Below are positions 6,504-32,206 of a stretch of 64,000 nt of DNA, piece after piece (within the stretch, counting starts at the first letter, position 1; each line of letters starts with the position of its first letter). Source of the DNA: an uncultured Burkholderiales bacterium. GTDB taxonomy: Bacteria; Pseudomonadota; Gammaproteobacteria; Burkholderiales; Thiobacillaceae. The stretch lies in contig CALHRD010000012.1 in the NCBI GenBank assembly GCA_938038385.1, forward strand, positions 19,541-83,540, read 5' to 3'. The translations under genes were made by a program, and so were the position numbers. The notes below the pieces were generated by a model, which searched no databases, was not told the DNA's origin, and saw only the letters and a list, made by a program, of their open reading frames with translations.

Positions 6504-6611
6504 GCCGCGGGACCAGGGGGTGAATCGGGTTGTTGGCCACTGTAATGAAACCATATACTGACTAACATTAAATAACTGTCGTTGGCTATAAGAGGTTCTG
6601 ATAGGCATCTC

Positions 6612-7406
6612 ATGGGACTGATGGAGCGGATCAAGCGGTCCGGCGCTGGCTGGAGCAAGACCATCGTCGCCTTCCGTTCACCCAACCCCCTGCGCAAGGG
6701 GGCGGAGCGCGCGAGCGACCGCCTCGTCACGCGCATCGAACGCACGCCGGAGGACGAATTCAAGATCCGCCTCGCCACGACAGGCGAGCGCGCCCAGCAG
6801 GCGAGCTTCCTGGTGCGCAAGCGCTATGCCGAGGTCGGCTATGTCGCGGCCGGCAGCGGCCAGCCCAAGGGTTGCCCGGCCGAGATCACCCTGTTGTCCT
6901 ACCTCAACGAGCAGGTCGTGGGCACGCTCACCGTCGGACTGGACGTCGGCCAGGGCCTCTACGCCGACGAACTGTACAAGGCGGAGACCGACCGCCTGCG
7001 CGCCGAGGGCCGCAAGCCGGCGGAATTCACCAAGCTGGCGGTAGACACCAAACGCGCCTCCAAGCAGGTGCTCGCCTCGCTCTTCCACATCGCTTACATC
7101 CATCTCAGGCGCATCTGGCGCTACACCGACATGGTCATCGAGGTGAATCCGGATCACGTCGAGTTTTACAAGCGTATGCTCGGTTTCGTCGACTTCGGCC
7201 CCGAGCGGCACTGCGCCCGCGTCAACGCCCCCGCCGTGCTGTTGTGGCTGGAGGCGGACAAGGTGGACAGATGGATCGAGGACTACGGCGGCAGGCCCGA
7301 ACTCGCCAAGCAGGTGCGCCTGCTCTATCCCTATTTCTTCTCGCCCAACAAAGACAGGGAGATCGCCAGGCATCTGATCGACAGCGAACGCGGTCAGGCG
7401 GAGTAG
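6612..7406 (+). CDS. FeeM-like long-chain N-acyl amino acid synthase, PEP-CTERM/exosortase-associated acyltransferase family
   Basis: About 264 aa. Its layout (RLATTGERAQQASFLVRKRYAEVGY...LTVGLD...AEFTKLAV...LFHIAYIHL...VNPDHVEFYKRMLGF) matches my recollection of the exosortase-associated acyltransferase family (TIGR03694-like), and PEP-CTERM genes lie nearby. The start is uncertain: TTG at 6582, ATG at 6612 or ATG at 6621. Confidence 0.65.
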   Translation: MGLMERIKRSGAGWSKTIVAFRSPNPLRKGAERASDRLVTRIERTPEDEFKIRLATTGERAQQASFLVRKRYAEVGYVAAGSGQPKGCPAEITLLSYLNEQVVGTLTVGLDVGQGLYADELYKAETDRLRAEGRKPAEFTKLAVDTKRASKQVLASLFHIAYIHLRRIWRYTDMVIEVNPDHVEFYKRMLGFVDFGPERHCARVNAPAVLLWLEADKVDRWIEDYGGRPELAKQVRLLYPYFFSPNKDREIARHLIDSERGQAE

Positions 7407-7665
7407 ATCGCACGGGGGGCAACCAGTTCGGGTAGGGCACCAAGACGCGCAGCGGCAGCGGCCATGTGGTCGTTGCTTGTTGCGGGTCAAGAAAACGACC
7501 GAGACGACGATATACACGGGTAACGGTGATCGCTGCAGCGGCCGTGGCGATGCGATGACCATGAGCCTTCGGGCACTACGGCTTCAAAGACACGGGGCCT
7601 TGGCTACGCCGGGCGCATCACCCTGCGCAGTGACAACCGAGTCATCAGGATTACGAGGAGAGAAG

Positions 7666-8742
7666 GTGGCCCTGTGCAAGAACTGCCTCCTGCCCGACAT
7701 CGTGCCCGGGGCCGATCTGGACGAGAGCGGGCTATGCGCGCATTGCCGCGCTTACGACCCGGCGCGTGCCGAGGCCGACGACCGCGAGGCCAGACGCGCC
7801 TATCAGGCCGACCTCGAGCAGTCGCTCGTCGCAGCCCGCGGCAGCGGCCGCTACGATGCCCTGGTCTGCCTGAGCGGCGGCAAGGACAGCCTCTATCTGC
7901 TCTACAAGCTCAAGGTCGAGTACGGGCTCAGCGTGTTGGCCTTCACCACCGACGTCAACATCCCGAAGCTCGCCTGGGACAACATCCGCCGCTGCATCGC
8001 CAGGCTGGGCGTGGATCACCTGGTCTATCGCCCGCCCGAGGCCTTCTACCGCAAGCTGTTCCGCTATCTGCTCACGCATCAGGAGGCGCGCGGTGCGGTC
8101 TATACCGTCTCTTACGTCTACGCCCCGCTGTTCGAAGGGGATGCGCTGACGGTGGCCATGGAAAAGGGCATCCCGCTCGTGCTGGCCGGCTACTCGCCCG
8201 GGCAGCCGGAGCCGGAGCGCATGGTGTACGAGTTTTCCCGCCGGCTGATCGGCGAGACCGACTGGACGCCGCCCGAACTGGCGTGCTGCGGCGAGTTCGA
8301 CGCGCAAGAGCTGGCGCGCTTCTGGAACCCGAAGCGCTATCCGGCCGGAAGTCGCTTTCCCCGCTATCTGGCCCCCTTCCACGCCTGGGACTACAACCAG
8401 GAGCTGGTCATGCGCGAAGTCGTCCGGCTTGGCCTGGTGAAGACCTCCCGCCATGCCAGCCCGGTGTTCAGCAACTATCCCATCAACTGGCTGTTGATGT
8501 ACTCGGACCTCCTGCATTTCGGCTACAACCCTTACACGCCGGAGTTTTCGGCCCTGATCCGGGCCGGCAAGGCCAGCCGCACCCACTGGCGCATCATGAC
8601 GCCCCTCGTCAACTTCATGATCCGGCACAAGGTCCTGCTGGGGGCCGAAGCCAGCCGCTCCCTGCGCTGGCTCGAGCTCCAGCCCGAGGACCTGCGCATC
8701 ACCCTGCCGCGCGGCGCCTATGATCCCCCTGTCAGTGTCTGA
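7666..8742 (+). CDS. PP-loop ATP pyrophosphatase, N-acetyl-sugar amidotransferase (WbpG-like) family
   Basis: GTG start preceded by a GAGGAG RBS. N-terminal zinc ribbon CKNC...x16...CAHC, then the PP-loop SGGKDS. Size (358 aa) and architecture resemble WbpG/LfnA. An alternative ATG start lies at 7555. Confidence 0.6.
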   Translation: MALCKNCLLPDIVPGADLDESGLCAHCRAYDPARAEADDREARRAYQADLEQSLVAARGSGRYDALVCLSGGKDSLYLLYKLKVEYGLSVLAFTTDVNIPKLAWDNIRRCIARLGVDHLVYRPPEAFYRKLFRYLLTHQEARGAVYTVSYVYAPLFEGDALTVAMEKGIPLVLAGYSPGQPEPERMVYEFSRRLIGETDWTPPELACCGEFDAQELARFWNPKRYPAGSRFPRYLAPFHAWDYNQELVMREVVRLGLVKTSRHASPVFSNYPINWLLMYSDLLHFGYNPYTPEFSALIRAGKASRTHWRIMTPLVNFMIRHKVLLGAEASRSLRWLELQPEDLRITLPRGAYDPPVSV

Positions 8743-10552
8743 AAAACTGGCCGATGCTGCCGGCGCCACGACCCTGCCGGCGTTGCTCGACGCCCGCGTC
8801 GCCGCCACGCCGGACGCCCCGGCCTATGCCGAACGAGGGGCGGGCAGGGGTTGGCGCACCACCACCTGGTCGGAGCACGCCCACCGGGTCAGGAGCCTGG
8901 CGCGGGGTTGTGCGCGACTGGGTTTGGCAAAGGGGGATAGGGTGTTGATCCTGGCACCCACCTGCCTCGCCTGGGAGCAGGTGCAGATGGCCATCCTGGG
9001 CTGTGGCGCCGTCGCCGTCGGCGTCGACCCGCGCACCGCCGACGCCCAGCTCGCGCAGATCGTGCGTCGGGTCGCGCCCGCCGCCGTGGTCGTCGGCGAC
9101 GTCGGCCTGCTCGAGCGCCTCCCGGCCGAGGTCGCGACGGCCGCGAAATTCCGCCTCAGCTTGAACCAGGCTGAGGGGCAGGCAGATTTACTGTCACTGG
9201 AGACCCTGGTCAAGGACGGGGAAAACCCAGACCGAGCCGATCCCTGGGGCCAGGTCCAGCCCGACGACCCCGCGCTCATCGTCTTCACCTCCGGCACCAC
9301 CGGCGAACCCAAGGGCATCGCCTACAGCCACCGTCAGGTGTGTCTGGCCTGTGCGGCCCTGCTCGCCACCTTTCCCCAGATCGAGCCGGGCGATCGCTTC
9401 GCCTGCTGGCTGCCGCTGGCCAATCTGTTCCAGCGCATGGTGAATTTCTTCGCCCTGCAGCGCGGCGTGACCACCTATTTCGTGGCGGACCCGCGCCAGC
9501 TCATGGCACTGCTGCCTGAAATCCGGCCGCACATGCTGATCGGCGTGCCCCGCTTCTATGAGAAGCTCTACGCCGGTATAGCCGCGCGCATCGAGGCCGC
9601 CGGGGCGATCAAACCCCTGCTGCGGTTGGCCCTGCGGGTGGGCGAGACGCATGCCGCGGCCCGCCGGCAAGGGCGGCGGCCCGGGCTGGCGTTGCGCATC
9701 CTGCACACCCTGCTCGACCCCTTGATACTGGCCCGATTCCGTAAAGCCCTGGGCGGCGAACTGCGTTTCCTGGTCAGCGGCTCCGCCCCGATGCCGGTCT
9801 GGCTGCTGGAGCGCCTGCACGGCCTCGGGCTGACCGTGCTGGAGGCCTATGGCACGAGCGAGAACATCACCCCGATCGCCGCCAACCGGCTCGACGCCTA
9901 CCGTTTCGGCAGCGTGGGACGGCCGCTGCCGGGCAACGAGGTGCGCATCAATGCGGAGGGCGAGCTGGAGGTGCGCGGGCCGGGTGTGTTCGCGGGTTAC
10001 CTGGATGATTCCGACCGCGGCATGTTCACCCTGGATGGCTTCCTCAGGACCGGCGACTATGCCGAATGGACCGGGGATGGTTTTCTCCGCCTCAAGGGGC
10101 GGCGCTCGGAGATCTTCAAGACCTCCACCGGCCGGCGCATCGCCCCCTTCGCCATCGAGCAGCGCCTGCTGGCCCTGCCCTGGGTGGAGCACGCCTTGGC
10201 CGCCGGGGCGGGGCGCAAGTTCGTCCTCGCCCTGCTCGCCATCAACGAAAAGGCCCTGGCGGATTGGGCGCGCGCACGTGGCCTGCCAGAGCAACTCGCC
10301 GAGCCGCCCGCTGCCGCATTGGCCGGCGCGCTTTGGCAGGACGTCGAGGCGGCGGCGGCCCCCCTGTCCGCACACGAGCGGCCGGCCGGCTGCGTGCTCG
10401 TCACCCGCCCCTTCGGCATCGTCAGCGGCGAGCTCACCCCCAACCTCAAGCTGCGCCGCGCCCAGGTGCTGGAGCGCTACGGCCCCTGTCTCGACCGGCT
10501 CTATGCCGAACTCGACGGCGGGGGCGGACAACGCCTGCGGGTGTGCGCATGA
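8720..10552 (+). CDS. AMP-dependent acyl-CoA/acyl-AMP ligase, long-chain type
   Basis: Adenylation core motifs FTSGTTGEPKGI, EAYGTSE and GDYAEW...GFLRLKGRRSEIFKTSTG. The 610-aa length fits the long-chain ACSL-like group. It overlaps the preceding gene by 23 nt. Confidence 0.85.
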   Translation: MIPLSVSEKLADAAGATTLPALLDARVAATPDAPAYAERGAGRGWRTTTWSEHAHRVRSLARGCARLGLAKGDRVLILAPTCLAWEQVQMAILGCGAVAVGVDPRTADAQLAQIVRRVAPAAVVVGDVGLLERLPAEVATAAKFRLSLNQAEGQADLLSLETLVKDGENPDRADPWGQVQPDDPALIVFTSGTTGEPKGIAYSHRQVCLACAALLATFPQIEPGDRFACWLPLANLFQRMVNFFALQRGVTTYFVADPRQLMALLPEIRPHMLIGVPRFYEKLYAGIAARIEAAGAIKPLLRLALRVGETHAAARRQGRRPGLALRILHTLLDPLILARFRKALGGELRFLVSGSAPMPVWLLERLHGLGLTVLEAYGTSENITPIAANRLDAYRFGSVGRPLPGNEVRINAEGELEVRGPGVFAGYLDDSDRGMFTLDGFLRTGDYAEWTGDGFLRLKGRRSEIFKTSTGRRIAPFAIEQRLLALPWVEHALAAGAGRKFVLALLAINEKALADWARARGLPEQLAEPPAAALAGALWQDVEAAAAPLSAHERPAGCVLVTRPFGIVSGELTPNLKLRRAQVLERYGPCLDRLYAELDGGGGQRLRVCA

Positions 10553-11676
10553 GCCGGGTCTGTTTCGTCACCGGGGCGACCGGCACCGTCGGCAGCGCCC
10601 TGATCCCCTTCCTGCTGGCCAACCCGGACAACGAAGTGCGCCTGCTGCTGCGCGCCCGCGACGTCGCCGATCTGGCCAGCCGGCTGGAAGCGTTACATGC
10701 CTTCTGGGGCCATGCCGCGGACGCACCCGAGCGCAGCCGTGTGCAGGCCCTGGCCGGTGACGTCGAACGGCCCCGCTTCGGCCTCTCGCCGCCTGATCAC
10801 GCGGAACTCACCCGTGTGTGCACCCACATCGTCCATTGCGCCGGCAAGGTGCGTATGAATCTGCCGATCGAGGCCGCCCGCAGCGCGGCCGTGGCCTCGG
10901 CGCGCAACGTGGTCGAATTGGCGCGCGCATGCCCAGGTCTGCAGAAGATCGAATTCGTCAGCACCGTCGGCGTCGGCGGTCGTATGCCGGGCGTCGTGCC
11001 CGAGATCTGGATCGACGCGCCGCGCGCCTTCCACAACACCTACGAGCAATCCAAGGCCGAGGCCGAGGACCTGATCCGCGCCGAGGTCGAACGCGGCCTG
11101 CCGCTCACCATCCACCGGCCCAGCATGGTGGTCGGCGAGGCGGCAGGCGGCCGCGTCATCCACTTCCAGATCTTCTACTACCTGTGTGAATTCCTCTCCG
11201 GCCGGCGCACGCGCGGACTGACCCCCGCCCTGGGTGAGGCACGTCTGGACATCATCCCGGCCGATTACGTCGGGCGCGCACTGGCCTGGGCGAGCCGTAC
11301 ACCGGAGACGAGCGGGCGCATCCTGCACCTGTGCGCCGGGCCCGAGGCTGCCATCCCGCTCTTCGAGCTGCAACGGCGCGTGCGTGCGGTCTGGCGGGCA
11401 CAGGGCATCGATCTGCCAAGGCTCAAGCCCCTGCCGCCGCGGCTGCTGCGCGCGGCGCTGCCCGTGCTGCGGCTGCTCACCCCCGCACCCGCCCGCAAGG
11501 CCCTCAACGCCCTGCCGGTCTTCCTCGACTATCTCGCCGACACCCAGGCCTTCGCCAACGATCAGACCCGGCGCCTGCTCGAGTCGGCGGGCATCGTCGC
11601 ACCGGTTCCGTCCGACTATCTGGATCGGTTGTTCGATTATTATTTCCGACGAGGCCCTGCCCGTGGCCGAGCCTGA
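10549..11676 (+). CDS. stand-alone thioester/acyl-CoA reductase (SDR, NAD_binding_4 type)
   Basis: ATGA overlap with the ligase stop. The Rossmann motif FVTGATGTVGSAL lies at the N-terminus. Y..SK (YEQSKAEAE) and HRPSMVVG are typical of terminal reductase domains. Confidence 0.8.
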   Translation: MSRVCFVTGATGTVGSALIPFLLANPDNEVRLLLRARDVADLASRLEALHAFWGHAADAPERSRVQALAGDVERPRFGLSPPDHAELTRVCTHIVHCAGKVRMNLPIEAARSAAVASARNVVELARACPGLQKIEFVSTVGVGGRMPGVVPEIWIDAPRAFHNTYEQSKAEAEDLIRAEVERGLPLTIHRPSMVVGEAAGGRVIHFQIFYYLCEFLSGRRTRGLTPALGEARLDIIPADYVGRALAWASRTPETSGRILHLCAGPEAAIPLFELQRRVRAVWRAQGIDLPRLKPLPPRLLRAALPVLRLLTPAPARKALNALPVFLDYLADTQAFANDQTRRLLESAGIVAPVPSDYLDRLFDYYFRRGPARGRA

Positions 11677-11736
11677 CGGCACAACGCACGCCCTGGGTAA
11701 AGCGGCTATCATGAAGGCGCCCTGCAGGAGATCGCC

Positions 11737-12489
11737 ATGAGTAACACCACCGAACGCGTCGACCGTCTCGAAGAGGCGTTGATGAAGCTCGCCTATGCCC
11801 AATTCAACACCGAGATGGAGATTCGCGATCTCAAAGGCGAGATGTTGGCGTTCAAGCGAGAAATGGCCGACTTCAAGAACGAGATGGCCGAGTTCAAGAA
11901 CGAGATGGCCGAGTTCAAGAACGAGATGGCCGAGTTCAAGAACGAGATGTCACAGTTCAAGGATGAGATGGCCGAGTTCAAGGATGAGATGTCACAGTTC
12001 AAGGACGAGGTCCGCCGCGACCAGCGTGCCATGAACAAGCGCTGGGGCGAAATCTCCAACAAGATGGGCACCCTAGTCGAGGACATCATCTATCCCTCGG
12101 TGCGCCGCATCGCGCGTGAACACTTTGGCGCGCCGGAGGAGATGGAATTCGAGGCGCAGCGCATCAAGCGTCGGCGTGCCACCGGCGACCGCCGCGAGTT
12201 CGACGGTGTCTTCGTCTGGGAGGGCCATGTGCTGCTGCTGGAGGCCAAGGCCAGCGTGCGTCCGGAGTATCTGGAGGCGTTCGACCGTTTCGTGCATCAG
12301 GGTGTGTTCTTCGACTACTTCCCGGAGTACGCCGGCCGGCGGCTGATACCGGTGTTCTCCGCCCTGGCGCTCACCGAGGCGGAGGTCGAGTGGCTGACCG
12401 CACACCGTCTCTATGCCGTGGCCATGGGCGAGGACGCCATGGCGTTGTTGAACGGTCCCGCCGTGGACAGCGTCAGCCTGCCGCACTAG
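11737..12489 (+). CDS. heptad-repeat coiled-coil protein with a C-terminal PD-(D/E)XK-like domain
   Basis: Eight EM(A/S)(E/Q/D)FK(N/D) heptads occupy residues 35-90. The C-terminal region has D156...E169-A-K171 (EFDGVFVWEGHVLLLEAKAS), a restriction-endonuclease-like signature. It lies on the same strand as its neighbours, with 60- and 53-bp gaps. Confidence 0.65.
   Translation: MSNTTERVDRLEEALMKLAYAQFNTEMEIRDLKGEMLAFKREMADFKNEMAEFKNEMAEFKNEMAEFKNEMSQFKDEMAEFKDEMSQFKDEVRRDQRAMNKRWGEISNKMGTLVEDIIYPSVRRIAREHFGAPEEMEFEAQRIKRRRATGDRREFDGVFVWEGHVLLLEAKASVRPEYLEAFDRFVHQGVFFDYFPEYAGRRLIPVFSALALTEAEVEWLTAHRLYAVAMGEDAMALLNGPAVDSVSLPH
11839..12006 (+). repeat. 8 x 21-bp in-frame tandem repeat; three consecutive units are identical
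   Basis: GAGATGGCCGAGTTCAAGAAC occurs identically at 11881, 11902 and 11923. The flanking units differ by a few bases. Confidence 0.95.
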
Positions 12490-12542
12490 CTCGCGTGCAC
12501 CGACCTGACCGCCCACCCGGCGAGTGTAAAAATTTCCGACAG

Positions 12543-14186
12543 ATGCCCGCCGCGCCGTCTTTGGACGATGCCCTCCTCGCCGCGCTGCGTGCGGCGGTGG
12601 GGCCAGAACACGTCCACACCGCCGCGGACGACCTCGAACGCCACTCGCGCTGCACCCTGCCCTGGGCGAGCCGTTGCGCCGCCGTGGTCCATCCCGGCTC
12701 GACGGAAGAGGTCGCGCAGGTGCTGGCCATCGCCAGCCGCCATCGCGTGCCGGTGTGGCCCTACAGCACCGGCCGCAACTGGGGCTACGGCGCCACCCTG
12801 GCCCCGGAATCCGGTGCCATCGTGCTGGTGCTGGCGCGCATGAACCGCATCCTGGAGGTCAACGAGGAACTGGCCTATGCCGTGGTCGAGCCCGGCGTCA
12901 CCTACGCCCAGCTCAACGCCCACCTCAAGGCGCACGGCCACCGGCTGTGGGTGGACTGCATCGACGGCACGCCGCACGGCAGCGTCATCGGCAACGCCCT
13001 CGACCGCGGCGTGGGCGAGACCCCCTACGGCGACCATTTCGGCAACCTGTGCGGTCTGGAGGTGGTGCTGCCCACCGGCGAGATCGTGCCCATCGGCGGT
13101 GCCGGCGAGCAGACCTGGCACCTGCACAAATGGGGCGTCGGGCCCTATCTCGAGGGCCTGTTCAGCCAGTCCAACCTGGGTGTGGTCACCCGCGCCGGCA
13201 TCTGGCTCATGCCCGAGCCCGAGGCCTATAACGCCTTCGTCTTCGAGCTCAGGGACGCGCGCCACTTCCCGGCGGTGGTCGACGCTTTCCGCCGGCTCGC
13301 CCTCGCCGGCGTGATCACCGCCAAGCTGCACATGATCAATGACGTGGTGAGCCTCACCCTGCTCACCCAGGTCAAGGACGAGGGCCTGCCCACCGAACGC
13401 GCGCTCACCGAGGGCGAGCTCGCCGCCCTGCGCGCCAAGTACCGCATCGCCCCGTGGAGCTGCGGCGGCGGGCTCTACGGCAGCGCCGCCCAGGTGCGCC
13501 TGCAGCGCCGCCTGCTCAGGCAGGCGGTGGGCTGCTACGGCAAGCTGCTGTTCATCGACGACACCCGGCTCGCCCTGCTCAAGCGCCTGATCGCCTGGTC
13601 GCGGGCAAATACGCTGGTGCGCCGCGTGGCCGAGACCCTGGTCGGCACCTCGCTGCCGGTGATGGCCTTCACCCCCTACATCTACGACATCCTGCGCGGC
13701 GTGCCCACCGAGCACTTCGTGCGCCACGCCTGGTTCCGCAACCGCCGTCCTCGCCCGGATTGCGACGTCGACCCGGCCGCCGACGCCTGCGGCCTGATCT
13801 GGTTCGCCCCCATCCTGCCCATGACGGGCGCGGCGCTCGCCCCCTATCTCGAGGACTGCCGTCGGCGTTTCGCCGCGCACGGCTTCGACTTCTACGTCGC
13901 CCTGTTGCTCATGAACCCGCGCGCGGTGATTCCGCTCATGGCCATCCTCTACGACCGCGCCGCCGCCGGGCAGGCCGAACGCGCCCGGGCGCTGCACGAC
14001 GAGCTCGTCGCCGCCATGCAGGCGGCCGGCTACCAGCCTTATCGGGCGGGACTGCTGACCTGGCCGCGGCTGTGGGCGAACGCGCCGGCGCTCGCCGCCC
14101 TCAACGCGCGGCTGAAGGCCGCCGTCGACCCCGCCGGGGTGCTCGCGCCGGGGCGCTACGGCATCGGCGCAAGCTCGGTCGAGTAG
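12543..14186 (+). CDS. FAD-linked oxidase, VAO/PCMH (vanillyl-alcohol oxidase / p-cresol methylhydroxylase) type
   Basis: Trimmed to the ATG giving MPAAPSLDD. It carries the FAD_binding_4 signature (VVHPGSTEEVAQVL...HRVPVWPYSTGRNWGYG). The 547-aa size is comparable to PchF/VAO. Confidence 0.8.
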   Translation: MPAAPSLDDALLAALRAAVGPEHVHTAADDLERHSRCTLPWASRCAAVVHPGSTEEVAQVLAIASRHRVPVWPYSTGRNWGYGATLAPESGAIVLVLARMNRILEVNEELAYAVVEPGVTYAQLNAHLKAHGHRLWVDCIDGTPHGSVIGNALDRGVGETPYGDHFGNLCGLEVVLPTGEIVPIGGAGEQTWHLHKWGVGPYLEGLFSQSNLGVVTRAGIWLMPEPEAYNAFVFELRDARHFPAVVDAFRRLALAGVITAKLHMINDVVSLTLLTQVKDEGLPTERALTEGELAALRAKYRIAPWSCGGGLYGSAAQVRLQRRLLRQAVGCYGKLLFIDDTRLALLKRLIAWSRANTLVRRVAETLVGTSLPVMAFTPYIYDILRGVPTEHFVRHAWFRNRRPRPDCDVDPAADACGLIWFAPILPMTGAALAPYLEDCRRRFAAHGFDFYVALLLMNPRAVIPLMAILYDRAAAGQAERARALHDELVAAMQAAGYQPYRAGLLTWPRLWANAPALAALNARLKAAVDPAGVLAPGRYGIGASSVE

Positions 14187-14298
14187 GGCGGTCATCCCCG
14201 CTCGCCGGCTTGGCGCACTGGCCCGGCCGGCCGCCCCGCATCCGGGTGTCGGATTTTTTTACGTTCCCCTCGTTGCGATCCCGACGCATCCGGCGCCG

Positions 14299-14330
14299 GT
14301 CGGACTCGTAGGTCGGACTTCGGTCCGACA
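14299..14330. repeat. REP-like hairpin, family 2 (GTAGGTCGG...CCGAC)
   Basis: GTCGGACTCGTAGGTCGGACTTCGGTCCGACA. The same GTCGG-N-loop-N-CCGAC hairpin with a (GT)AGGT/ACCTAC flank recurs at about 14508-14530, 15914-15934, 15968-15991, 16885-16909 and 45504-45527. Confidence 0.75.
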
Positions 14331-14366
14331 CTTTGACGTGAATGTCACGCAAGCGACCATGCAGCG

Positions 14367-14492
14367 CCCCTCACCATCCCTCACCCCCGACCCCTCCCCC
14401 CGAGGGGGAGGGGAGAGAGGGCCGGAGGGGCTGGGGAAGAGGGAACAGACGAGGCGACATGCATGCTACGGGGCCGCGTCGCCATGTCCGTT
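14367..14492. repeat. interspersed intergenic repeat, family 1 (copy A)
   Basis: A CCCCTC...GAGGGG palindrome, followed by GAGAGGGCCGGAGGGGCTGGGGAAGAGGGAACAGACGAGGCGACATGCATGCTACGGGGCCGCGTCGCCATGTCCGTT. It is clearly alignable with copy B. Coordinates are approximate. Confidence 0.8.
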
Positions 14493-14769
14493 GGCCCGAC
14501 GGGTGGGGTGTCGGGCTGAAGCCCGACCCACGGGTCATGCCGCCCGAGGGACACGCAATCGGCAGCCGCTACAGCGCCATCCCCACGCAGCGGACGGCAT
14601 CCGCGCAGCGATGGCGCACGCGGTGGTGCGCTCGGGCATGGGGTACGACGGCGCGGCGTTGGGCGCGCCCGGGCGCCCCGGCCGTGTGTCGGTTTTTTTT
14701 ACACACGCCCTGATCGAGGCCTGCCCCCGACTTGCGTACAGGCTGATCGTGCATCTATATATTCATATC

Positions 14770-14782
14770 TATCAATGCGTTA
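14770..14782 (+). promoter_or_regulatory. IHF-like site (TATCAATGCGTTA) in an AT-rich tract
   Basis: Matches WATCAANNNNTTR and is centred about 50 nt upstream of the predicted sigma-54 transcription start. Confidence 0.35.
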
Positions 14783-14801
14783 CGCGATACGTTTCAGGGG
14801 T

Positions 14802-14817
14802 TGGCACGGGCGTTGCT
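14802..14817 (+). promoter_or_regulatory. sigma-54 (-24/-12) promoter
   Basis: TGGCACGGGCGTTGCT is an exact fit to TGGCAC-N5-TTGC. It lies about 60 nt upstream of the PEP-CTERM protein gene. A sigma-54 activator (PrsR) is encoded in the window. Confidence 0.7.
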
Positions 14818-15877: not shown

Positions 15878-15967
15878 CGTCGGCTCGCGCTGCCGCTGCG
15901 GTGATTTGCAACGGTAGGTCAGGCCTCAGCCTGATGGGTTGGCTACGACGCATGCGGGTGTTGGGGT

Positions 15968-15991
15968 GTGTCGGGCTGAAGCCCGACCTAT
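15968..15991. repeat. REP-like hairpin, family 2
   Basis: GTGTCGGGCTGAAGCCCGACCTAT. The core is identical to the copy at 14508-14530. Degenerate CCGACCT direct repeats follow, up to about 16045. Confidence 0.75.
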
Positions 15992-16130
15992 GTTCCTACC
16001 TACATTCCGACCTACGGCCCGACCTTGGACCGGACGGGGCCGACCGATGAAGCGGGCACTGCCCTGTGGGCGGGCTTGCCTGTCGGCGGCGGCTGGGATA
16101 TACCTTGGCCCCATTCACCGGGCAGACACC

Positions 16131-16832
16131 ATGCAGACCGACTACAAGGACTACCTGCTCTCCACCCTGTTCATCGGCCTCGTGCTGGCCCTCACGGCCC
16201 TGGCGCTCGCCTGGGTGCAGGACACCCTGCTCGCGGCGCTGGGGCCGCTCTATGCCCCGATCGCCGTGGTGGTGCTGTTCCTCGCCCTCTACGGCGGGGT
16301 GAGCGCCCTGCTGCTCGCGCTGCTCGACCGCCTCTACCCGCTCAAGGCCGGCAGTTACCGCCTGGGCCACGCGCAGTTCCGGCTGTGGAAGCTGCGCCAC
16401 GTGGCCACCGCCCTGGCCAAGGCGGCGCTCACCCCCTTTTTCCCGGTGTTCTCGCGTCAGGCCCTGTATGCCCTGCTCGGCGCGCGCGTGGGCAGGAACG
16501 TGGCGGTGGCGGGCACGATCCTCGACCCCTCGCTCACCACCCTGGAGGACGGCAGCGTCATCGGCGAGGGGGCCATCGTCGCCTGCCACGTCATGGCGCG
16601 CGGCCGTTTCCTGCTGCGCGGGGTGTATGTCGGCCACGGCGCGACCGTGGGCGGCCGCGCCAGCGTCATGCACGGGGTGAAGGTCGGCGCCGGGGCGGTG
16701 ATCCTGCCGGGCGCGCTCGTCCAGGCCGACACCGAAATCCCGGCGGGCGAGGTCTGGGGCGGCATGCCGGCGGTGCGCGTGAAGGCGGCACGCCGGACGG
16801 GACAGGCGGAGCAGGAAGACCAGGCCGGATAG
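16131..16832 (+). CDS. membrane-anchored left-handed beta-helix (hexapeptide-repeat) acyl/acetyltransferase
   Basis: Hydrophobic helices at the N-terminus, followed by hexapeptide repeats (GARVGRNVAVAGTILDP...GEGAIV...GHGATVGGRASV...GAGAVILPGALV). Trimmed to the ATG at 16131; the upstream part of the ORF runs through REP elements. Confidence 0.75.
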   Translation: MQTDYKDYLLSTLFIGLVLALTALALAWVQDTLLAALGPLYAPIAVVVLFLALYGGVSALLLALLDRLYPLKAGSYRLGHAQFRLWKLRHVATALAKAALTPFFPVFSRQALYALLGARVGRNVAVAGTILDPSLTTLEDGSVIGEGAIVACHVMARGRFLLRGVYVGHGATVGGRASVMHGVKVGAGAVILPGALVQADTEIPAGEVWGGMPAVRVKAARRTGQAEQEDQAG

Positions 16833-16884: not shown

Positions 16885-16909
16885 TGTCGGCAAGGGCTTG
16901 CCGACCTAC
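16885..16909. repeat. REP-like hairpin, family 2
   Basis: TGTCGGCAAGGGCTTGCCGACCTAC, in the convergent gap between the LbH acyltransferase and SRPBCC genes. Confidence 0.75.
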
Positions 16910-17403
16910 GCAACCCCCTCCACTCGTGCCTTCAACGCCGCGTTCATGCGTTCGAAGCCGACCAGCACGTTGCGCCTGAGCCACGGCGCCATCAGGGGTA
17001 CCAGCCAGCCGCTGAAGCGCTCGCTCTGGATCAGCCGCGAGCGGCCGCTTCCGAGCGGCTCGATGACGAAGCGGTGATCCCCGTCCATCAGGCCGGGCCG
17101 GCCCAGGTGTCCGAGCCAGCGCAGCTCGCGCGCGGGCTGCGCGCCGAGCACCTGCAAGACATAGGGGCCGCGTTTGAGACCGGGCCATGCGATCTCCACC
17201 TCGAGGCGGCTGCCGGCGTGGGCCGCGCCCGCGGCCCTGGGGATGCAGGGATTCCAATCGGCATAGGCGGGGAAATCGGTCAGAGCGGCCCAGATCCGCT
17301 CCGGTGCGGCGTCGATGTCGATCTGCGTGTGCAGTTCGAGACCACGCCACCCGGTGCGACGGGCGTACGAGGCGGGATGGGTGGGGTTGAGCAAAGCGGT
17401 CAT
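16906..17403 (-). CDS. SRPBCC (START/Bet v1-like) ligand-binding protein
   Basis: 165 aa. IDAAPERIWAALTDFPAYADWNP... is typical of the polyketide-cyclase/SRPBCC fold. Confidence 0.7.
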   Translation of the reverse strand: MTALLNPTHPASYARRTGWRGLELHTQIDIDAAPERIWAALTDFPAYADWNPCIPRAAGAAHAGSRLEVEIAWPGLKRGPYVLQVLGAQPARELRWLGHLGRPGLMDGDHRFVIEPLGSGRSRLIQSERFSGWLVPLMAPWLRRNVLVGFERMNAALKARVEGVA

Positions 17404-17487: not shown

Positions 17488-19032
17488 CTAGCGTGGAGGG
17501 CGTTGCGATGCGAGATGATCCGCCACCCGCAAGGCGTTGGCGGCGATGGTGAGCGCCGGGTTGGTGCCGCCGCTGGTGGGGAAGAAGGCGGCGTCCACCA
17601 CCCACAGGTTGTCGAGGTCATGCGCGCGGTTGTAGCGGTCGAGCACGCTCGTCGCCGGGTCGTCGCCGAAGCGGCAGGTGCCGCAGGCGTGCGCCAGCAT
17701 GATGTTTTTTTCTGCCTGGCGCAGGGCGAGGAAGCGGTAGGGCCGCAGCGTGGCGCAAACCTGACGGCGGAAGACGTCGAGCCGCCTGCGGTCATCGGCA
17801 TGCAAATGGTATTCGACCGCCAGCGGCGGGCCGGGCAGGACCCGGTTGTCGGGATGGGGGAGATCCTCCAGGATGGCGGCAAGCAGGACGCCGCGCTCGA
17901 ACAGGCCATCCAGCAAGGGCCGCAGCAGCGGGCGCAGGGGTGCGATGAGGGGCGCAGCCCAGGGCGCCTTGGCGCGCAGCTCGCGGTCGAGGTCCTGCAG
18001 CAGCATGGCGGCCGGCGGCAGGGCGCCGAAGGCCTGCAGCGTGCCGAGCTTCTCACCGTCGCGCCGGTAGAGGTCGCTCAGGCCCAGCGCCTTGTGGTGC
18101 CGGTCGGTCTTTTCGTGCGTGAAGACCAGGTAGAGGTCGACCAGATGGCGCATGAGGTGGCGCCCCACGAGGCCGGAGCGGTTGGCCAGGCCGGCCGGCC
18201 AGTCGGCGCTGGCGGAGCGCAGCAACAGGGCGGGGGTTTGCAGCGCCCCGGCAGCGAGAATGATGTGCCGGGCGCGCAGGGTGAAGGTCGCGCCGGCCTG
18301 CCGGCAGAGGACGCCGGTGGCGCGTTGGGTGTCGGCCTCCAGGCGTAGCGCTTCGCATTCATCCAGCAGCGCGGCGCCGTGTTCGGCCAGCGCGGGCTCG
18401 AGGCAGACCCGGCTGGCGTCGTTCTTGCAGGCGCGCGGGCAGAGATAGCCCTGGCAGCAGGCGCAGCCGGGCAGGAATTCGCAGGCCTGCGGCAGTCGGT
18501 AGGGGTGCAGGCCTTCGCGCTGGAAGTGGGCGTGCAGTTCGGTCTGAGCCGGGCCTGGCGGCGGCGCCGGCGGCAGCCCCGGCGCCGGCGGGCGCAGGGG
18601 GTCGCGCTCACCGCGCACGACGTAGAGCGCCTCGGCTCGGTCGTAATACGGGGCGAGGTCTGCGTAGGTGATCGGCCAAGCGGCGAAATCCACCGGAAAG
18701 AAGCGCTCCATGGCCATGCCGTAGAGGGCGCTGGAGCCGCCGCTGCCACAACCCATGAGGGGCACGAAGGCATGCGCGCCGTCGCGCACGGGTTCCGCCA
18801 TGCGGCCGCCACGGCGCAGGCAGTCGGCCGGCGCCGCCGCGTCCGGACAGACGAGTTCGGGATAGTCGCCGCGCAGGCTGTCGCCGTGGCGAAAGGCAGC
18901 ACGCCCCTTTTCGAGGAACAGCACGCGCCAGCCGGCGCGCGCCAGGGCATGGCCCAGGGTGGCCCCGCCCACCCCGGTGCCGATCACCAGGGCATCCCAG
19001 TCCTGCGCGCGGATGGCCTCGAGGTCATGCAC
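17488..19032 (-). CDS. GMC-family FAD oxidoreductase
   Basis: N-terminal GxGxxG (DALVIGTGVGGATLGHALARAG...FLEKG). The C-terminal GMC region carries GTCRFG...VVD..FFPTSGGTNPALTIAANALR. It overlaps the GT gene by 8 nt. Confidence 0.85.
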   Translation of the reverse strand: MHDLEAIRAQDWDALVIGTGVGGATLGHALARAGWRVLFLEKGRAAFRHGDSLRGDYPELVCPDAAAPADCLRRGGRMAEPVRDGAHAFVPLMGCGSGGSSALYGMAMERFFPVDFAAWPITYADLAPYYDRAEALYVVRGERDPLRPPAPGLPPAPPPGPAQTELHAHFQREGLHPYRLPQACEFLPGCACCQGYLCPRACKNDASRVCLEPALAEHGAALLDECEALRLEADTQRATGVLCRQAGATFTLRARHIILAAGALQTPALLLRSASADWPAGLANRSGLVGRHLMRHLVDLYLVFTHEKTDRHHKALGLSDLYRRDGEKLGTLQAFGALPPAAMLLQDLDRELRAKAPWAAPLIAPLRPLLRPLLDGLFERGVLLAAILEDLPHPDNRVLPGPPLAVEYHLHADDRRRLDVFRRQVCATLRPYRFLALRQAEKNIMLAHACGTCRFGDDPATSVLDRYNRAHDLDNLWVVDAAFFPTSGGTNPALTIAANALRVADHLASQRPPR

Positions 19033-21067: not shown

Positions 21068-21103
21068 CAAGCCTCCAAAAACCCGCCACGGTACATCACG
21101 CTC

Positions 21104-23439: not shown

Positions 23440-23484
23440 GCTCGTGGCCCGTTTGCAGGCGCAGCCCACCGCTCGACGCGAATT

Positions 23485-24696: not shown

Positions 24697-24704
24697 GGTC
24701 GGGC

Positions 24705-25949: not shown

Positions 25950-26003
25950 GTCAGACCCCTCCGGTGGCCGGTCGCAGTGTCTGCCGATGATGCGTCGGGC
26001 TGC

Positions 26004-28790: not shown

Positions 28791-28872
28791 CGATGTGGGC
28801 TCCTCTGGGGTAGTTGTGCGCGTCAAGTTGTGCAAAATATGTTGTTGCCGCTTCGGGCTAAGCCCTGCGCGG

Positions 28873-32075: not shown

Positions 32076-32206
32076 GGTCGGAGGGTATCCTTGGATTCTG
32101 ATGGGCGTGTCGCCTCTGGCGGGGCAACTCTGCCGTATATCGATGCCTCAGCGATGTTTCTTGAGTCCTGCCCGGCAGGGCGATGTCGTAGGGGGGGTGG
32201 CCGCGT

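What the first reader, a model, noticed from the sequence alone, without database searches (positions are those of the whole stretch)
6582..14186. Six-gene operon combining NAS, PP-loop amidotransferase, acyl ligase, thioester reductase, nuclease-fold protein and VAO-type oxidase: candidate pathway for a modified lipo-amino acid
Seen: the six co-directional genes have overlaps or gaps of 60 bp or less, except for the ~260-bp gap after the first gene. Their order is:
- FeeM-like N-acyl amino acid synthase
- WbpG-like Zn-ribbon/PP-loop enzyme (23-nt overlap with the next gene)
- 610-aa AMP-forming acyl ligase (ATGA overlap with the next gene)
- stand-alone thioester/acyl-CoA reductase
- heptad-repeat/PD-(D/E)XK-like protein
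- VAO/PCMH-type flavoprotein
No ACP/PCP, condensation or KS domain is present.
Known: long-chain N-acyl amino acid synthases are genomically linked to the PEP-CTERM/exosortase system (Craig, Cherry and Brady, J Bacteriol 2011, as I recall). They usually acylate aromatic or basic amino acids. VAO/PCMH enzymes oxidise para-substituted phenols.
Inference: an N-acyl (possibly tyrosine-type) amino acid may be carboxyl-activated and reduced to an aldehyde or alcohol, amidated, and oxidised on the phenol side chain. I do not know of a characterised cluster with this gene combination. Its position next to PEP-CTERM cargo and regulators suggests the product is a signal or an anchor/acceptor lipid for that system.
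Basis: partly seen in the sequence, partly recalled or inferred. Interest (0 to 1): 0.8.

Follow-up and report, generated by a model that had tools for sequence, protein, structure and literature searches.

The report
Conserved lipo-amino-acid tailoring gene module
The six genes are real, and four or five of them belong to a widespread but uncharacterised enzyme set that sits in cell-surface (PEP-CTERM) loci and probably converts a fatty-acylated aromatic amino acid into a modified envelope lipid of unknown structure.

Summary
The six co-directional ORFs, their overlaps and their domain calls are confirmed.

- **Core module.** It has three genes: a tetracysteine/PP-loop enzyme (G2), a long-chain acyl ligase (G3) and a stand-alone thioester reductase (G4). 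All 64 informative genomes have all three, and 61 keep the same order. Distant relatives carry them as fused proteins.
[quoted passage not shown] It is either FeeM-type, as here, or TIGR03694-type. A 4-phenol (VAO/PCMH) flavoenzyme occurs in about 40%, a GT1 glycosyltransferase in about 25%, a Lol-like exporter in about 60%, and PEP-CTERM/EPS markers in about 67%.
- **Gene 5.** This coiled-coil/PD-(D/E)XK-like gene is a lineage-specific insertion, not a pathway member.
- **Likely product.** A reduced, amide-activated, phenol-oxidised and possibly glycosylated N-acyl-tyrosine-type lipid. The chemistry is inferred, not shown.

No Pfam or NCBIfam model at threshold, source name or paper found here covers G2 or the triad. 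Verdict: a new variant of the known N-acyl amino acid clusters, and moderately to highly interesting.

The parts
6582..7406 (+). G1: FeeM-type N-acyl amino acid synthase (GNAT fold). The start may be ATG 6612.
   Evidence: Pfam PF21926 at 7.8e-46. PDB FeeM 2g0b at 1.2e-11. No TIGR03694 hit. FeeM-like or TIGR03694 genes lie within 10 kb of G2 in 34 of 68 loci, and directly upstream in 16.
7666..8742 (+). G2: tetracysteine zinc-ribbon and PP-loop ATP pyrophosphatase. It is a distant relative of the N-acetyl-sugar amidotransferases and belongs to a family not captured at threshold by any Pfam or NCBIfam model.
   Evidence: No Pfam hit. TIGR03573 scores 96 bits against a cut-off of 203. It has SGGKDS and CxxC..GxCxxC motifs, and homologues are 65-90% identical across phyla. 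The AF2 model has pLDDT 88.5, and its best fold match is 8wex at TM 0.65.
8720..10552 (+). G3: long-chain AMP-forming acyl ligase (FadD11/ACSL-like)
   Evidence: PF00501 at 9e-65 and AMP-binding_C_3. NF038343 FadD11 scores 275 bits, below its cut-off. The TSGTTGEPKG, YGTSE, TGD and C-terminal Lys motifs can be read in the translation. It follows G2 in 61 of 64 loci.
10549..11676 (+). G4: stand-alone thioester (acyl-CoA) reductase, with an ATGA overlap with G3
   Evidence: PF07993 at 4e-49. TIGR01746 scores 120 bits against a cut-off of 213. Best PDB matches are the MxaA R domain 4u7w and the PKS R domain 8v1x at 1e-26. GATGxxG and YxxxK motifs are present in the translation.
11737..12489 (+). 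G5: coiled-coil plus PD-(D/E)XK-like protein. It is a lineage-specific insertion and not part of the pathway.
   Evidence: It is found only in the window's two closest relatives. The family is small, with 65 proteins, and its members lie in unrelated contexts. Fold matches to Can2, NucS and restriction nucleases are weak, at E about 1e-3.
12543..14186 (+). G6: VAO/PCMH-type 4-phenol oxidoreductase without the histidyl-FAD link residue
   Evidence: PDB matches: VAD at 6e-83, PCMH at 1e-71 and VAO at 1e-60. Tyr82, Tyr500 and Arg501 are invariant in 23 of 23 module-linked homologues. Leu replaces VAD His387. It is present in 41% of well-covered loci.
14246..14817 (+). Regulatory region of the next gene. 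It has two PEP-CTERM-box motif-1 copies (14246-14263 and 14686-14703) and a perfect sigma-54 -24/-12 promoter (14802-14817).
   Evidence: The motif is described in PMC1569441.
14885..15831 (+). PepA-like PEP-CTERM cargo protein
   Evidence: PF07589. NF033554 floc_PepA scores 79.7 bits against a cut-off of 80. A PEP-CTERM-like ORF lies within 3 kb of the module in 23 of 44 loci.
15939..16832 (+). Hexapeptide-repeat acyltransferase, a possible sugar O-acyltransferase
   Evidence: Hexapep at 1.4e-6. It is conserved in the closest relatives. HyeG of the hyellamide cluster is an analogue.
16906..17403 (-). SRPBCC (Polyketide_cyc2) lipid-binding-fold protein
   Evidence: conserved in L090.
17488..19032 (-). 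GMC oxidoreductase, a probable tailoring oxidase of the same pathway
   Evidence: GMC_oxred_N and GMC_oxred_C. It is 53% identical to the GMC gene in the Nannocystis locus, which also holds FeeM, a PP-loop gene, the ligase, the reductase, the VAO and the GT1.
19025..20239 (-). GT1 (EryCIII/MGT-like) glycosyltransferase, a probable tailoring enzyme
   Evidence: A GT1 is present in 26% of well-covered loci. It is adjacent to the module in the Verrucomicrobia locus L003 and 46% identical to the GT1 in the Nannocystis locus.
20285..26003 (.). Lol-like exporter set. It comprises TP_0789/LolA-like (20285-21067, -), ABC ATPase (21038-21862, +), DUF1302-like outer-membrane protein (21850-23439, +) and two FtsX/MacB permeases (about 23485-24700 and 24705-26003, -).
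   Evidence: At least one of these parts lies within 10 kb of G2 in 23 of 39 well-covered loci, and directly upstream of G2 in L004.
26004..37177 (-). Context: the XrtA/PEP-CTERM regulators and EPS priming enzyme. These are PrsT x2, PrsR, PrsK and the TIGR03013 glycosyltransferase.
   Evidence: NCBIfam scores above cut-off: TIGR02917 at 758 bits, TIGR02915 at 736, TIGR02916 at 793 and TIGR03013 at 528.

Best explanation
The locus encodes a pathway that builds and tailors a lipo-amino-acid-derived envelope lipid.

Shown:
- The conserved heart is a three-enzyme unit, G2 (zinc-ribbon/PP-loop ATP pyrophosphatase), G3 (long-chain acyl ligase) and G4 (thioester reductase).
- The three genes travel together in all informative genomes and occur fused in distant relatives.
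- They are often joined by a 4-phenol flavoenzyme, a GT1 glycosyltransferase, a methyltransferase and a Lol-like exporter, mostly inside PEP-CTERM/EPS loci.

Inferred mechanism:
1. G1 N-acylates an aromatic, tyrosine-type amino acid.
2. G3 activates the free alpha-carboxylate as an acyl-AMP or acyl-CoA.
3. G4 reduces it to the aldehyde, or further to the alcohol. Together G3 and G4 act like a split carboxylic-acid reductase without a carrier protein.
4. G2 adenylates the amide oxygen, as N-acetyl-sugar amidotransferases are thought to do. The oxygen is then replaced by nitrogen (an amidine) or the ring closes onto the neighbouring aldehyde.
5. G6 oxidises the benzylic carbon of the phenol side chain through a quinone methide.
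6. The GMC oxidase, the GT1 and the hexapeptide transferase at 15.9-20.3 kb add oxidation, a sugar and an O-acyl group.
7. The ABC/FtsX/LolA-like/DUF1302 set exports the product to the envelope, where it acts together with PEP-CTERM proteins and exopolysaccharide.

G5 is an unrelated inserted gene.
For: Core unit:
- G2, G3 and G4 are present in 64 of 64 informative loci, and 61 keep the same order and strand.
- G2 is much more conserved (62-87% identity) than G3 (33-73%) or G4 (36-79%) in the same loci.
- Fusions exist: reductase-PP-loop (P0262, P0293, P0313, P0328), PP-loop-ligase (P0272) and A-PCP-R-PP-loop (P0304).
- A sister PP-loop family again sits beside a reductase and a ligase in a Pseudobdellovibrionaceae genome.

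Link to an N-acyl amino acid:
- Two unrelated NAS families alternate immediately upstream of G2. One is FeeM-type; the other is TIGR03694, scoring 227 bits.
- The Nannocystis locus L091 shares FeeM, the PP-loop gene, the ligase, the reductase, the VAO, the GMC oxidase and the GT1 with the window at 32-53% identity, in a different gene order.
- The phenolate triad is invariant in module-linked VAOs.
- Other loci carry different small-molecule tailoring enzymes: an FGE/EgtB-like protein in Bacteroidetes and two B12-radical-SAM enzymes plus a GT1 in Verrucomicrobia.

G2 chemistry:
- G2 has the two hallmark NASAT motifs, and its whole-length fold is closest to Legionella NASAT 8wex.

Export and context:
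- Lol-like exporter parts occur in 59% of well-covered loci and PEP-CTERM/EPS markers in 67%.

Precedents for NAS plus an ATP-dependent enzyme plus an oxidase, and for NAS-type lipids with a sugar and an LbH acetyltransferase:
- tyz, PMC10404671.
- Stieleriacines, PMC7293339.
- Hyellamide, PMC11959600.
Against: - No product is known for any member, so every chemical step is inference.
- Half of the loci have no NAS within 10 kb. The triad may therefore work on plain fatty acids, or the NAS may lie elsewhere in those genomes, which could not be tested here.
- VAO presence is not clearly tied to NAS presence: 10 of 19 NAS loci have it, against 6 of 20 loci without a NAS.
- G2 scores below the curated NASAT cut-off, and its substrate cannot be read from sequence.
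- G3 could instead supply acyl-CoA to G1.
- No sigma-54 promoter (up to 2 mismatches) or PEP-CTERM box (up to 3 mismatches) lies upstream of G1 or G2, so co-regulation with PEP-CTERM cargo is not shown.
- The GMC oxidase, SRPBCC protein and hexapeptide gene recur with the module only in close relatives, and the GMC oxidase also in Nannocystis.
Confidence: 0.5

Rival explanations
1. Fatty aldehyde/alcohol pathway, or another fatty-acid-derived product, that is independent of the NAS. G3 and G4 convert ordinary long-chain fatty acids to aldehydes or alcohols. G2 acts on that product or on a different small substrate. The NAS and VAO are merely frequent neighbours in the same surface-lipid loci.
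For: - Half of the loci lack a NAS within 10 kb.
- G3 is closest to fatty-acid CoA ligases such as FadD11.
- G4 carries the 'male sterility' fatty-acyl reductase domain.
- The sister triad in L093 lies next to fabH-fabD-fabG-acpP-fabF.
Against: - A PP-loop amide- or carboxylate-activating enzyme has no obvious role on a plain aldehyde or alcohol.
- Two unrelated NAS families converge on the position directly upstream of G2.
- The Nannocystis locus keeps FeeM with the triad.
- Accessory enzymes point to an aromatic moiety.
Confidence: 0.2
2. Exopolysaccharide sugar modification. G2 is a genuine N-acetyl-sugar amidotransferase that makes acetamidino sugars for the PEP-CTERM-associated EPS. G3 and G4 modify or acylate the polymer.
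For: - The only characterised relatives of G2 are NASAT enzymes.
- The module lies directly after the EpsB-type priming transferase in Methylomonas, and inside EPS loci in many genomes.
Against: - G2 scores far below the NASAT cut-off and is 19% identical to 8wex.
- Its fusion partners are thioester reductases, acyl ligases and a carrier protein, not sugar enzymes.
- The Nannocystis, Bacteroidetes and Pseudobdellovibrionaceae loci showed no PEP-CTERM or EPS genes in their flanks, only a T9SS-signal protein in the Bacteroidetes one.
Confidence: 0.1
3. The product is the lipid acceptor, or anchor, to which exosortase XrtA transfers cleaved PEP-CTERM proteins. This is a functional reading compatible with the best explanation, not a different chemistry.
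For: - PEP-CTERM-like genes lie within 3 kb of the module in 23 of 44 loci.
- In a Bacteroidetes locus a T9SS-signal cargo gene sits inside the module.
- An amidine or amine-bearing lipid would be a plausible transpeptidation nucleophile (inference).
- Disrupting the exosortase-associated NAS gene in Methylomonas LW13 abolished formation of the polysaccharide band (PMC11072679).
Against: - No exosortase gene was found among the window genes scanned against Pfam or NCBIfam; ORFs beyond 54 kb were not scanned.
- No biochemical precedent exists for XrtA acceptors.
- The module also occurs in the Pseudobdellovibrionaceae genome L093 with no PEP-CTERM genes among the called neighbours.
Confidence: 0.12
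4. Chance juxtaposition of unrelated genes.
For: - G5 is indeed unrelated.
- The VAO and NAS are not universal.
Against: - The triad co-occurs in 64 of 64 informative loci.
- The components occur as fusions.
- Seven genes are shared with a myxobacterial locus.
Confidence: 0.02

Closest known systems
fee cluster of soil eDNA (FeeM N-acyl tyrosine synthase with tailoring enzymes such as the FeeG oxidative decarboxylase)
   Same: G1 belongs to the FeeM Pfam family and matches the FeeM crystal structure sequence. Both are NAS-centred clusters that tailor an N-acyl tyrosine-type lipid by flavoenzyme oxidation.
   Different: No PP-loop enzyme is reported for the fee pathway (my recollection). The window has no dedicated ACP and no FeeG/CndG-type decarboxylase. 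Its oxidase is a VAO/PCMH enzyme.
Acyl-oxazolone (tyrazolone) pathway TyzABC / OxzAB, and the proposed stieleriacine cluster
   Same: The logic is the same: a NAS, an ATP-dependent enzyme acting at the amide/carboxylate, and a flavin oxidase acting on the tyrosine C-alpha/C-beta (PMC10404671; PMC7293339). The stieleriacine cluster also lies beside a PEP-CTERM gene.
   Different: There the ATP enzyme is a ThiF/E1 homologue and the oxidase a nitroreductase-superfamily enzyme. Here they are a PP-loop NASAT-like enzyme and a VAO-type enzyme. The obligatory ligase-reductase pair here implies loss of the carboxylate, which an oxazolone needs.
Hyellamide (hye) cluster of Hyella patelloides
   Same: It makes a glycosylated, O-acetylated N-acyl-tyrosine-derived lipid. 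An N-acyltransferase, a glycosyltransferase and an LbH/hexapeptide acetyltransferase occur together. The window has a NAS, a GT1 and a hexapeptide transferase.
   Different: hye uses an SGNH-type acyltransferase and a FeeG-like decarboxylase. No PP-loop enzyme, ligase, reductase or VAO is mentioned for it.
N-acetyl sugar amidotransferases (NASAT: WbuX, WbpG, LpNASAT; TIGR03573)
   Same: G2 has the SGGxDS PP-loop and the CxxCxn[GN]xCxxC zinc motif. Its whole-length fold is closest to 8wex, at TM 0.65.
   Different: G2 scores 96 bits against a cut-off of 203 and is 19% identical to 8wex. Its conserved partners are an acyl ligase and a thioester reductase rather than sugar-nucleotide enzymes, and it is fused to those domains in relatives.
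Carboxylic acid reductases and terminal NRPS/PKS reductase domains (A-PCP-R)
   Same: G3 plus G4 reproduce the A and R parts, with translational coupling. G4's best solved relatives are the MxaA and PKS R domains. One relative, P0304, is a true A-PCP-R followed by the PP-loop domain.
   Different: There is no carrier protein in the window module. G3 is an ACSL/FadD11-type ligase rather than an NRPS-type A domain.
TIGR03694 exosortase-associated N-acyl amino acid synthases (Craig, Cherry and Brady 2011)
   Same: The genomic setting is the same, inside XrtA/PEP-CTERM loci. TIGR03694 genes occupy the same position upstream of G2 in other genomes.
   Different: G1 itself gives no TIGR03694 hit. 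The 2011 paper could not be read here, so whether it noted the neighbouring triad is unknown.
4-phenol oxidising VAO/PCMH flavoenzymes (VAO, EUGO, PCMH, VAD)
   Same: G6 matches them at 1e-60 to 6e-83 and keeps the Tyr/Tyr/Arg phenolate site.
   Different: The cap domain aligns only weakly to VAD, at 37 bits. There is no His at the flavin-linking position and no cytochrome partner gene nearby. The context is lipid biosynthesis rather than aromatic catabolism.

Membership tests
FeeM-type N-acyl amino acid synthase (PF21926) | Profile match above the curated cut-off | tested here: met
   156.2 bits against a cut-off of 27, covering profile positions 2-157 of 158. PDB FeeM 2g0b at 1.2e-11.
FeeM-type N-acyl amino acid synthase (PF21926) | Catalyses N-acylation of an amino acid from acyl-ACP or acyl-CoA | not testable with these tools
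   Needs an enzyme assay or heterologous expression.
TIGR03694 PEP-CTERM/exosortase-associated acyltransferase | Profile match above the cut-off of 111.95 bits | tested here: not met
   G1 gives no hit at E<=0.01. A control sequence from another locus scores 227 bits.
N-acetyl sugar amidotransferase (NASAT, TIGR03573) | Profile match above the cut-off of 203.2 bits | tested here: not met
   96.3 bits.
N-acetyl sugar amidotransferase (NASAT, TIGR03573) | PP-loop SGGxDS and tetracysteine CxxCxn[GN]xCxxC motifs (PMC10607449) | tested here: met
   SGGKDS, and CKNC..(16)..GLCAHC. All are invariant in 12 diverse homologues.
N-acetyl sugar amidotransferase (NASAT, TIGR03573) | Whole-length fold like LpNASAT | tested here: met
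   Foldseek E 1.9e-11, TMq 0.65, about 360 aligned columns, 19% identity. The next hits share only the PP-loop domain, at TM about 0.36.
N-acetyl sugar amidotransferase (NASAT, TIGR03573) | Converts a sugar N-acetyl group to an acetamidino group | not testable with these tools
   The context and the fusions argue for a different substrate.
AMP-forming acyl-CoA ligase (PF00501) | Profile match and the adenylate-forming core motifs | tested here: met
   219 bits. The TSGTTGEPKG, YGTSE, TGD, GRRSEIFKTSTGRRIAP and C-terminal Lys motifs are seen in the translation.
TIGR03098 exosortase A-associated acyl-CoA ligase | Profile match above the cut-off of 592 bits | tested here: not met
   90 bits.
Thioester reductase (PF07993 / TIGR01746) | NAD_binding_4 profile, nucleotide-binding glycine motif and YxxxK | tested here: met
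   PF07993 scores 167.5 bits. VTGATGTVG and YEQSK are seen in the translation. TIGR01746 itself scores 120.5 bits, below its cut-off of 213.
4-phenol oxidising VAO/PCMH subgroup | FAD_binding_4 domain and close similarity to VAO, EUGO, PCMH and VAD | tested here: met
   PF01565 scores 109.8 bits. VAD 6e-83, PCMH 1.4e-71, VAO 2e-60; AGPS scores only 1e-7.
4-phenol oxidising VAO/PCMH subgroup | Phenolate-binding Tyr, Tyr and Arg | tested here: met
   GRNWGYG and YQPYR align to VAD GKNFAYG and YGEYR. They are invariant in 23 of 23 module-linked homologues.
4-phenol oxidising VAO/PCMH subgroup | Covalent flavin link (His as in VAO/VAD, or Tyr as in PCMH) | tested here: inconclusive
   The position of VAD His387 is Leu, and is never His in the clade. 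The PCMH Tyr384 position could not be aligned here. Non-covalent members exist (nsVAO, PMC7617285).
PD-(D/E)XK nuclease fold (G5) | Alpha/beta core with a D...(D/E)xK motif | tested here: inconclusive
   D156, E169 and K171 are invariant. The model has pLDDT 86. The best fold hits are all PD-(D/E)XK nucleases, but at E about 1e-3 and TM about 0.3.
Single operon G1-G6 | Co-directional genes with overlaps or short gaps and no internal terminator | tested here: met
   There is no + strand terminator-like site between 6582 and 14186. Transcription itself was not tested.

The most novel reading that the evidence does not exclude
G2 defines a new class of ATP-dependent amide-activating enzymes. They would act on the N-acyl-alpha-amino aldehyde released by the ligase-reductase pair and turn it into a cationic fatty amidine or a 2-alkyl azole (imidazole or oxazole). 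The result would be a previously unseen class of bacterial envelope lipids. These lipids would be exported by a Lol-like system and serve the PEP-CTERM/exosortase system, for example as the acceptor for sorted proteins or as an EPS-binding lipid. Carriers include nitrifiers, methanotrophs, Accumulibacter and sulfur oxidisers.
Probability: 0.18. Interest if true: 0.85.

Novelty: new variant of a known kind. Interest (0 to 1): 0.68.

Why it matters
[quoted passage not shown] This locus shows that the synthase is often only the first step of a conserved tailoring and export pathway.

- **Its core has no description.** The core enzyme family (G2) matches no Pfam or NCBIfam model at threshold, carries no informative name in the sources searched, and appears in none of the papers found.
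- **It is widespread.** Relatives were found in 187 stretches of the one-genome-per-species collection. Carriers include Nitrosomonas europaea, Methylomonas, Candidatus Accumulibacter, Thiobacillus and Thiothrix, all important in nitrification, methane oxidation and wastewater flocs.
- **It yields direct tests.** Concrete, cultivable test systems and a defined gene set follow from the survey, so one can ask what lipid is made and whether floc formation or PEP-CTERM protein sorting needs it.

Tried and rejected
1. **Ether-lipid idea.** The idea was acyl ligase plus fatty-acyl reductase plus an AGPS-like flavoenzyme. It is rejected: G6 matches alkyl-DHAP synthase only at 1e-7, against 6e-83 for 4-phenol enzymes.
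2. **PrsR/sigma-54 control of the operon.** No sigma-54 consensus (up to 2 mismatches) or PEP-CTERM box lies upstream of G1 or G2. The boxes and the perfect promoter belong to the downstream PepA-like gene.
3. **Hidden ACP, small ORF or conserved element in the 259-bp G1-G2 gap.** The gap is not conserved even among the closest relatives. There is no Rfam hit in the cluster.
4. **G5 as a pathway enzyme.** Rejected on distribution and context.
5. **VAO presence tracking NAS presence.** No clear association was found.
6. **Reading Craig et al. 2011.** The paper is not held.
7. **Literature search for the triad or for G2.** Searches on NAS clusters, floc/PEP-CTERM work and NASAT found no description of them.
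8. **Plasmid collection search with G2.** It gave only distant PP-loop hits, among them an NRPS with an embedded PP-loop domain. This was not informative for this module.
9. **My first ORF-clustering pass.** It lost genes to longer antisense ORFs in this GC-rich DNA. Counts were redone on six-frame translations with family HMMs.

Full report
**1. The observation**

The window is GC-rich, about 67%. ORF listing and translation confirm six co-directional genes on the + strand:
- G1: 6582-7406.
- G2: the ORF opens at 7477, but 120 homologues of 349-441 aa (most 355-360) and a GAGGAGAG-GTG start place the real start at 7666. The stop is at 8742.
- G3: 8720-10552.
- G4: 10549-11676.
- G5: 11737-12489.
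- G6: 12543-14186.

The stated spacings all hold:
- The gap after G1 is 259 bp.
- G2 and G3 overlap by 23 nt.
- G3 and G4 share an ATGA overlap.
- The remaining gaps are 60 and 53 bp.

No + strand terminator-like site lies inside 6582-14186.

**2. Family assignments**

- **G1** is a FeeM-family GNAT. Pfam PF21926 scores 156 bits, and the FeeM crystal-structure sequence 2g0b matches at 1e-11. It gives no hit to TIGR03694, the exosortase-associated acyltransferase model.
- **G2** has no Pfam domain and scores 96 bits on TIGR03573 (WbuX/NASAT), below the cut-off of 203.
  - It carries the two hallmark NASAT motifs, SGGKDS and CxxC...GxCxxC.
  - Its AlphaFold model has pLDDT 88.5. The model matches the Legionella N-acetyl-sugar amidotransferase 8wex over its whole length, at TM 0.65 and 19% identity.
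  - Other PP-loop enzymes match only the nucleotide-binding half.
- **G3** is an AMP-forming ligase closest to FadD11-type long-chain ligases, with all core motifs.
- **G4** is a stand-alone thioester reductase. Its best solved relatives are the MxaA and PKS terminal R domains.
- **G6** belongs to the 4-phenol-oxidising VAO/PCMH subgroup.
  - It matches VAD at 6e-83, PCMH at 1e-71 and VAO at 1e-60. Alkyl-DHAP synthase scores only 1e-7.
  - The phenolate-binding Tyr/Tyr/Arg residues are present, and they are invariant in all 23 module-linked homologues.
  - The flavin-linking His of VAD is replaced by Leu (PMC7617285).
- **G5** is a roughly 110-residue helix followed by a small alpha/beta domain. 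That domain has invariant D, E and K residues, and its best, though weak, fold matches are PD-(D/E)XK nucleases.

**3. Synteny**

G2 homologues are remarkably conserved, at 65-90% identity across Burkholderiales, Verrucomicrobia, Bacteroidetes and Desulfobacterota. Every source calls them hypothetical. A scan of one genome per species found 187 stretches encoding a G2 relative, and 80 loci were fetched.

Local tblastn and HMM searches of those loci gave these results:
- G3 and G4 accompany G2 in 64 of 64 loci with enough flanking DNA. In 61 of them the order G2>G3>G4 on one strand is kept.
- Within the same loci G2 is 62-87% identical to the window protein, G3 33-73% and G4 36-79%. G2 is therefore under unusually strong constraint.
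- A NAS-like GNAT lies within 10 kb in 34 of 68 loci. It is FeeM-like in 24 and TIGR03694 in 13 (three loci were counted under both models), and it sits directly upstream of G2 in 16. Two unrelated acyltransferase families occupying the same slot argues for a functional link.

In the 39 loci with the widest flanks, partner frequencies are as follows:

| Partner | Share of loci |
|---|---|
| VAO-type enzyme | 41% |
| Any NAS | 49% |
| GT1 glycosyltransferase | 26% |
| Methyltransferase | 18% |
| Any Lol-like exporter part (FtsX, TP_0789/LolA-like or DUF1302-like) | 59% |
| Any PEP-CTERM/EPS marker | 67% |

Further points:
- A PEP-CTERM-like ORF lies within 3 kb of the module in 23 of 44 loci.
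- G5 occurs only in the two closest relatives. Its small family sits in unrelated contexts elsewhere, so it is an inserted gene.
- Other genomes show similar insertions: a DUF2887 nuclease-like gene between the ligase and the reductase, and an IS200 transposase next to the VAO.

**4. Fusions and a sister family**

A full HMMER scan of 1.84 billion representatives collapses the G2 orthologues into essentially one 50%-identity cluster. It also finds more distant full-length relatives, with 192 representatives at E<=1e-30. Several of these are fusions:
- Reductase-PP-loop: P0262, P0293, P0313 and P0328.
- PP-loop-ligase: P0272.
- A-PCP-R-PP-loop: P0304.

The fused reductase and ligase parts visibly resemble G4 and G3.

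Contexts of the stand-alone sister family are telling:
- A Pseudobdellovibrionaceae genome has PP-loop-reductase-ligase next to the fab genes.
- Nannocystis radixulma has FeeM, the PP-loop gene, the ligase, the reductase, a VAO, a GMC oxidoreductase and a GT1 within 15 kb. All are 32-53% identical to the window proteins, in a different order and orientation.

The cluster in the window therefore most likely includes the GMC oxidase (17488-19032, -) and the GT1 (19025-20239, -). It probably also includes the neighbouring SRPBCC and hexapeptide-transferase genes and the exporter at 20.3-26.0 kb. The close relative L090 has exactly this layout.

**5. Surroundings**

- Downstream of G6 lie two PEP-CTERM-box motifs and a perfect sigma-54 promoter. 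They precede a PepA-like PEP-CTERM gene.
- Two PrsT paralogues, PrsR, PrsK and the TIGR03013 priming glycosyltransferase follow at 26-37 kb. All score above the curated cut-offs.
- Beyond them are housekeeping genes: PBP1A, pilMNOPQ, lpxC, ftsZAQ, ddl and murC.
- No exosortase gene was found among the window genes scanned against Pfam or NCBIfam; ORFs beyond 54 kb were not scanned.
- No box or sigma-54 promoter was found upstream of G1 or G2.

**6. How it most likely works**

Shown: the enzyme families, the obligatory triad, the fusions, the alternation of two NAS families, the phenol-binding site of G6, and the recurrent exporter and PEP-CTERM context.

Inferred:
1. G1 makes an N-acyl aromatic amino acid.
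2. G3 and G4 act as a split carboxylic-acid reductase on its free carboxylate and give the aldehyde or alcohol.
3. G2 adenylates the amide oxygen, as proposed for NASAT enzymes. The oxygen is then replaced by nitrogen, or the ring closes onto the adjacent aldehyde.
4. G6 oxidises the benzylic carbon.
5. The GMC oxidase, the GT1 and the hexapeptide enzyme add further decoration.
6. The Lol-like system exports the product.

Three precedents support the general logic:
- The tyz/oxz acyl-oxazolone pathway uses a NAS, an ATP-dependent cyclase and a flavin desaturase.
- The stieleriacine cluster lies beside a PEP-CTERM gene.
- Hyellamide is a glycosylated, O-acetylated N-acyl-tyrosine derivative whose cluster holds a glycosyltransferase and an LbH acetyltransferase.

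I put 0.5 on the general statement, a tailored N-acyl-amino-acid-derived lipid. Any single step deserves less.

**7. Rivals**

- **Plain fatty aldehyde or alcohol route that does not use the NAS (0.2).** Half of the loci lack a nearby NAS, which supports it. It leaves G2 without a role and does not explain the converging NAS families.
- **True sugar amidotransferase working on EPS precursors (0.1).** Its fusion partners and the loci without PEP-CTERM or EPS genes in their flanks argue against it.
- **Chance juxtaposition.** This is excluded for the core.
It remains an open functional reading and is compatible with the chemistry proposed here.

**8. Novelty**

G2 matches no Pfam or NCBIfam model at threshold and carries no informative source name. 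No paper found in four literature searches describes G2 or the triad. The key 2011 paper could not be read.

The locus is a new variant of a known kind, namely NAS-centred lipo-amino-acid clusters. Its core is conserved and uncharacterised, and it is present in environmentally important bacteria. It also makes the long-open question of what NAS products do in PEP-CTERM systems directly testable.

Noticed in passing
window 4486-4575 (-): Rfam anti-hemB sRNA (RF02837) scores 72.9 bits against a gathering score of 49.5. It lies just upstream of and antisense to the hemB gene (4698-5702).
   Followed up: no
window 14246-14263, 14686-14703 and 14802-14817 (+): Two perfect copies of GTGTCGGWTTTTTTTACR, which ends in the TTTACA of PEP-CTERM-box motif 1, and a perfect sigma-54 -24/-12 promoter lie ahead of the PepA-like PEP-CTERM gene. 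The 'terminator-like' hairpins reported after G6 are in fact these boxes.
   Followed up: partly
window 12525-12542 (-): A weaker, inverted PEP-CTERM-box-like motif (3 mismatches) sits in the G5-G6 spacer directly before the G6 start codon. None is expected by chance in 100 shuffles. Its role is unknown.
   Followed up: no
window ~14375-14440: A C-rich/G-rich inverted repeat (CCCCTCCCCCC...GGGGGAGGGG) lies between the two PEP-CTERM boxes, in a 700-bp non-coding stretch.
   Followed up: no
window 26004-28949 and 29163-32147 (-): Two tandem PrsT-like TPR lipoprotein genes stand where one is usual, next to PrsR and PrsK.
   Followed up: no
window 5769-6608 (-): A YcgR-like PilZN+PilZ (c-di-GMP-binding) gene is transcribed divergently from G1. 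Its likely start is at 6503. The arrangement is conserved in the close relative L090.
   Followed up: partly
L001 10001-16495 (Bacteroidetes MAG): The module here is FeeM, G2, an FGE-sulfatase/EgtB-like protein, a small protein with a T9SS Por_Secre_tail sorting signal, the ligase and the reductase. A cargo protein of a different sorting system occupies the place that PEP-CTERM genes take in Proteobacteria.
   Followed up: partly
L003 1-9951 (Verrucomicrobia MAG): This module variant carries a GT1 and two B12-binding radical-SAM enzymes interleaved with G2, the ligase, the reductase and FeeM.
   Followed up: no
L064 8078-8926; L012 7713-8156: Selfish genes are inserted in or next to the module in other genomes. 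One is a DUF2887/DUF4351 gene between the ligase and the reductase; the other is an IS200 Y1 transposase beside the VAO. Both parallel the G5 insertion here.
   Followed up: no
L094 6415-14463 (Roseovarius pelagicus plasmid NZ_CP106737.1): A 2682-aa NRPS contains an embedded G2-like PP-loop segment at about residues 860-1050, 35% identical to the N-terminal half of G2.
   Followed up: partly
window 2033-3700 (-): SoxZ, SoxY and a di-haem-type cytochrome c gene show that the organism is a sulfur oxidiser. The closest loci come from Hydrogenophilales and Thiobacillus-like MAGs.
   Followed up: no
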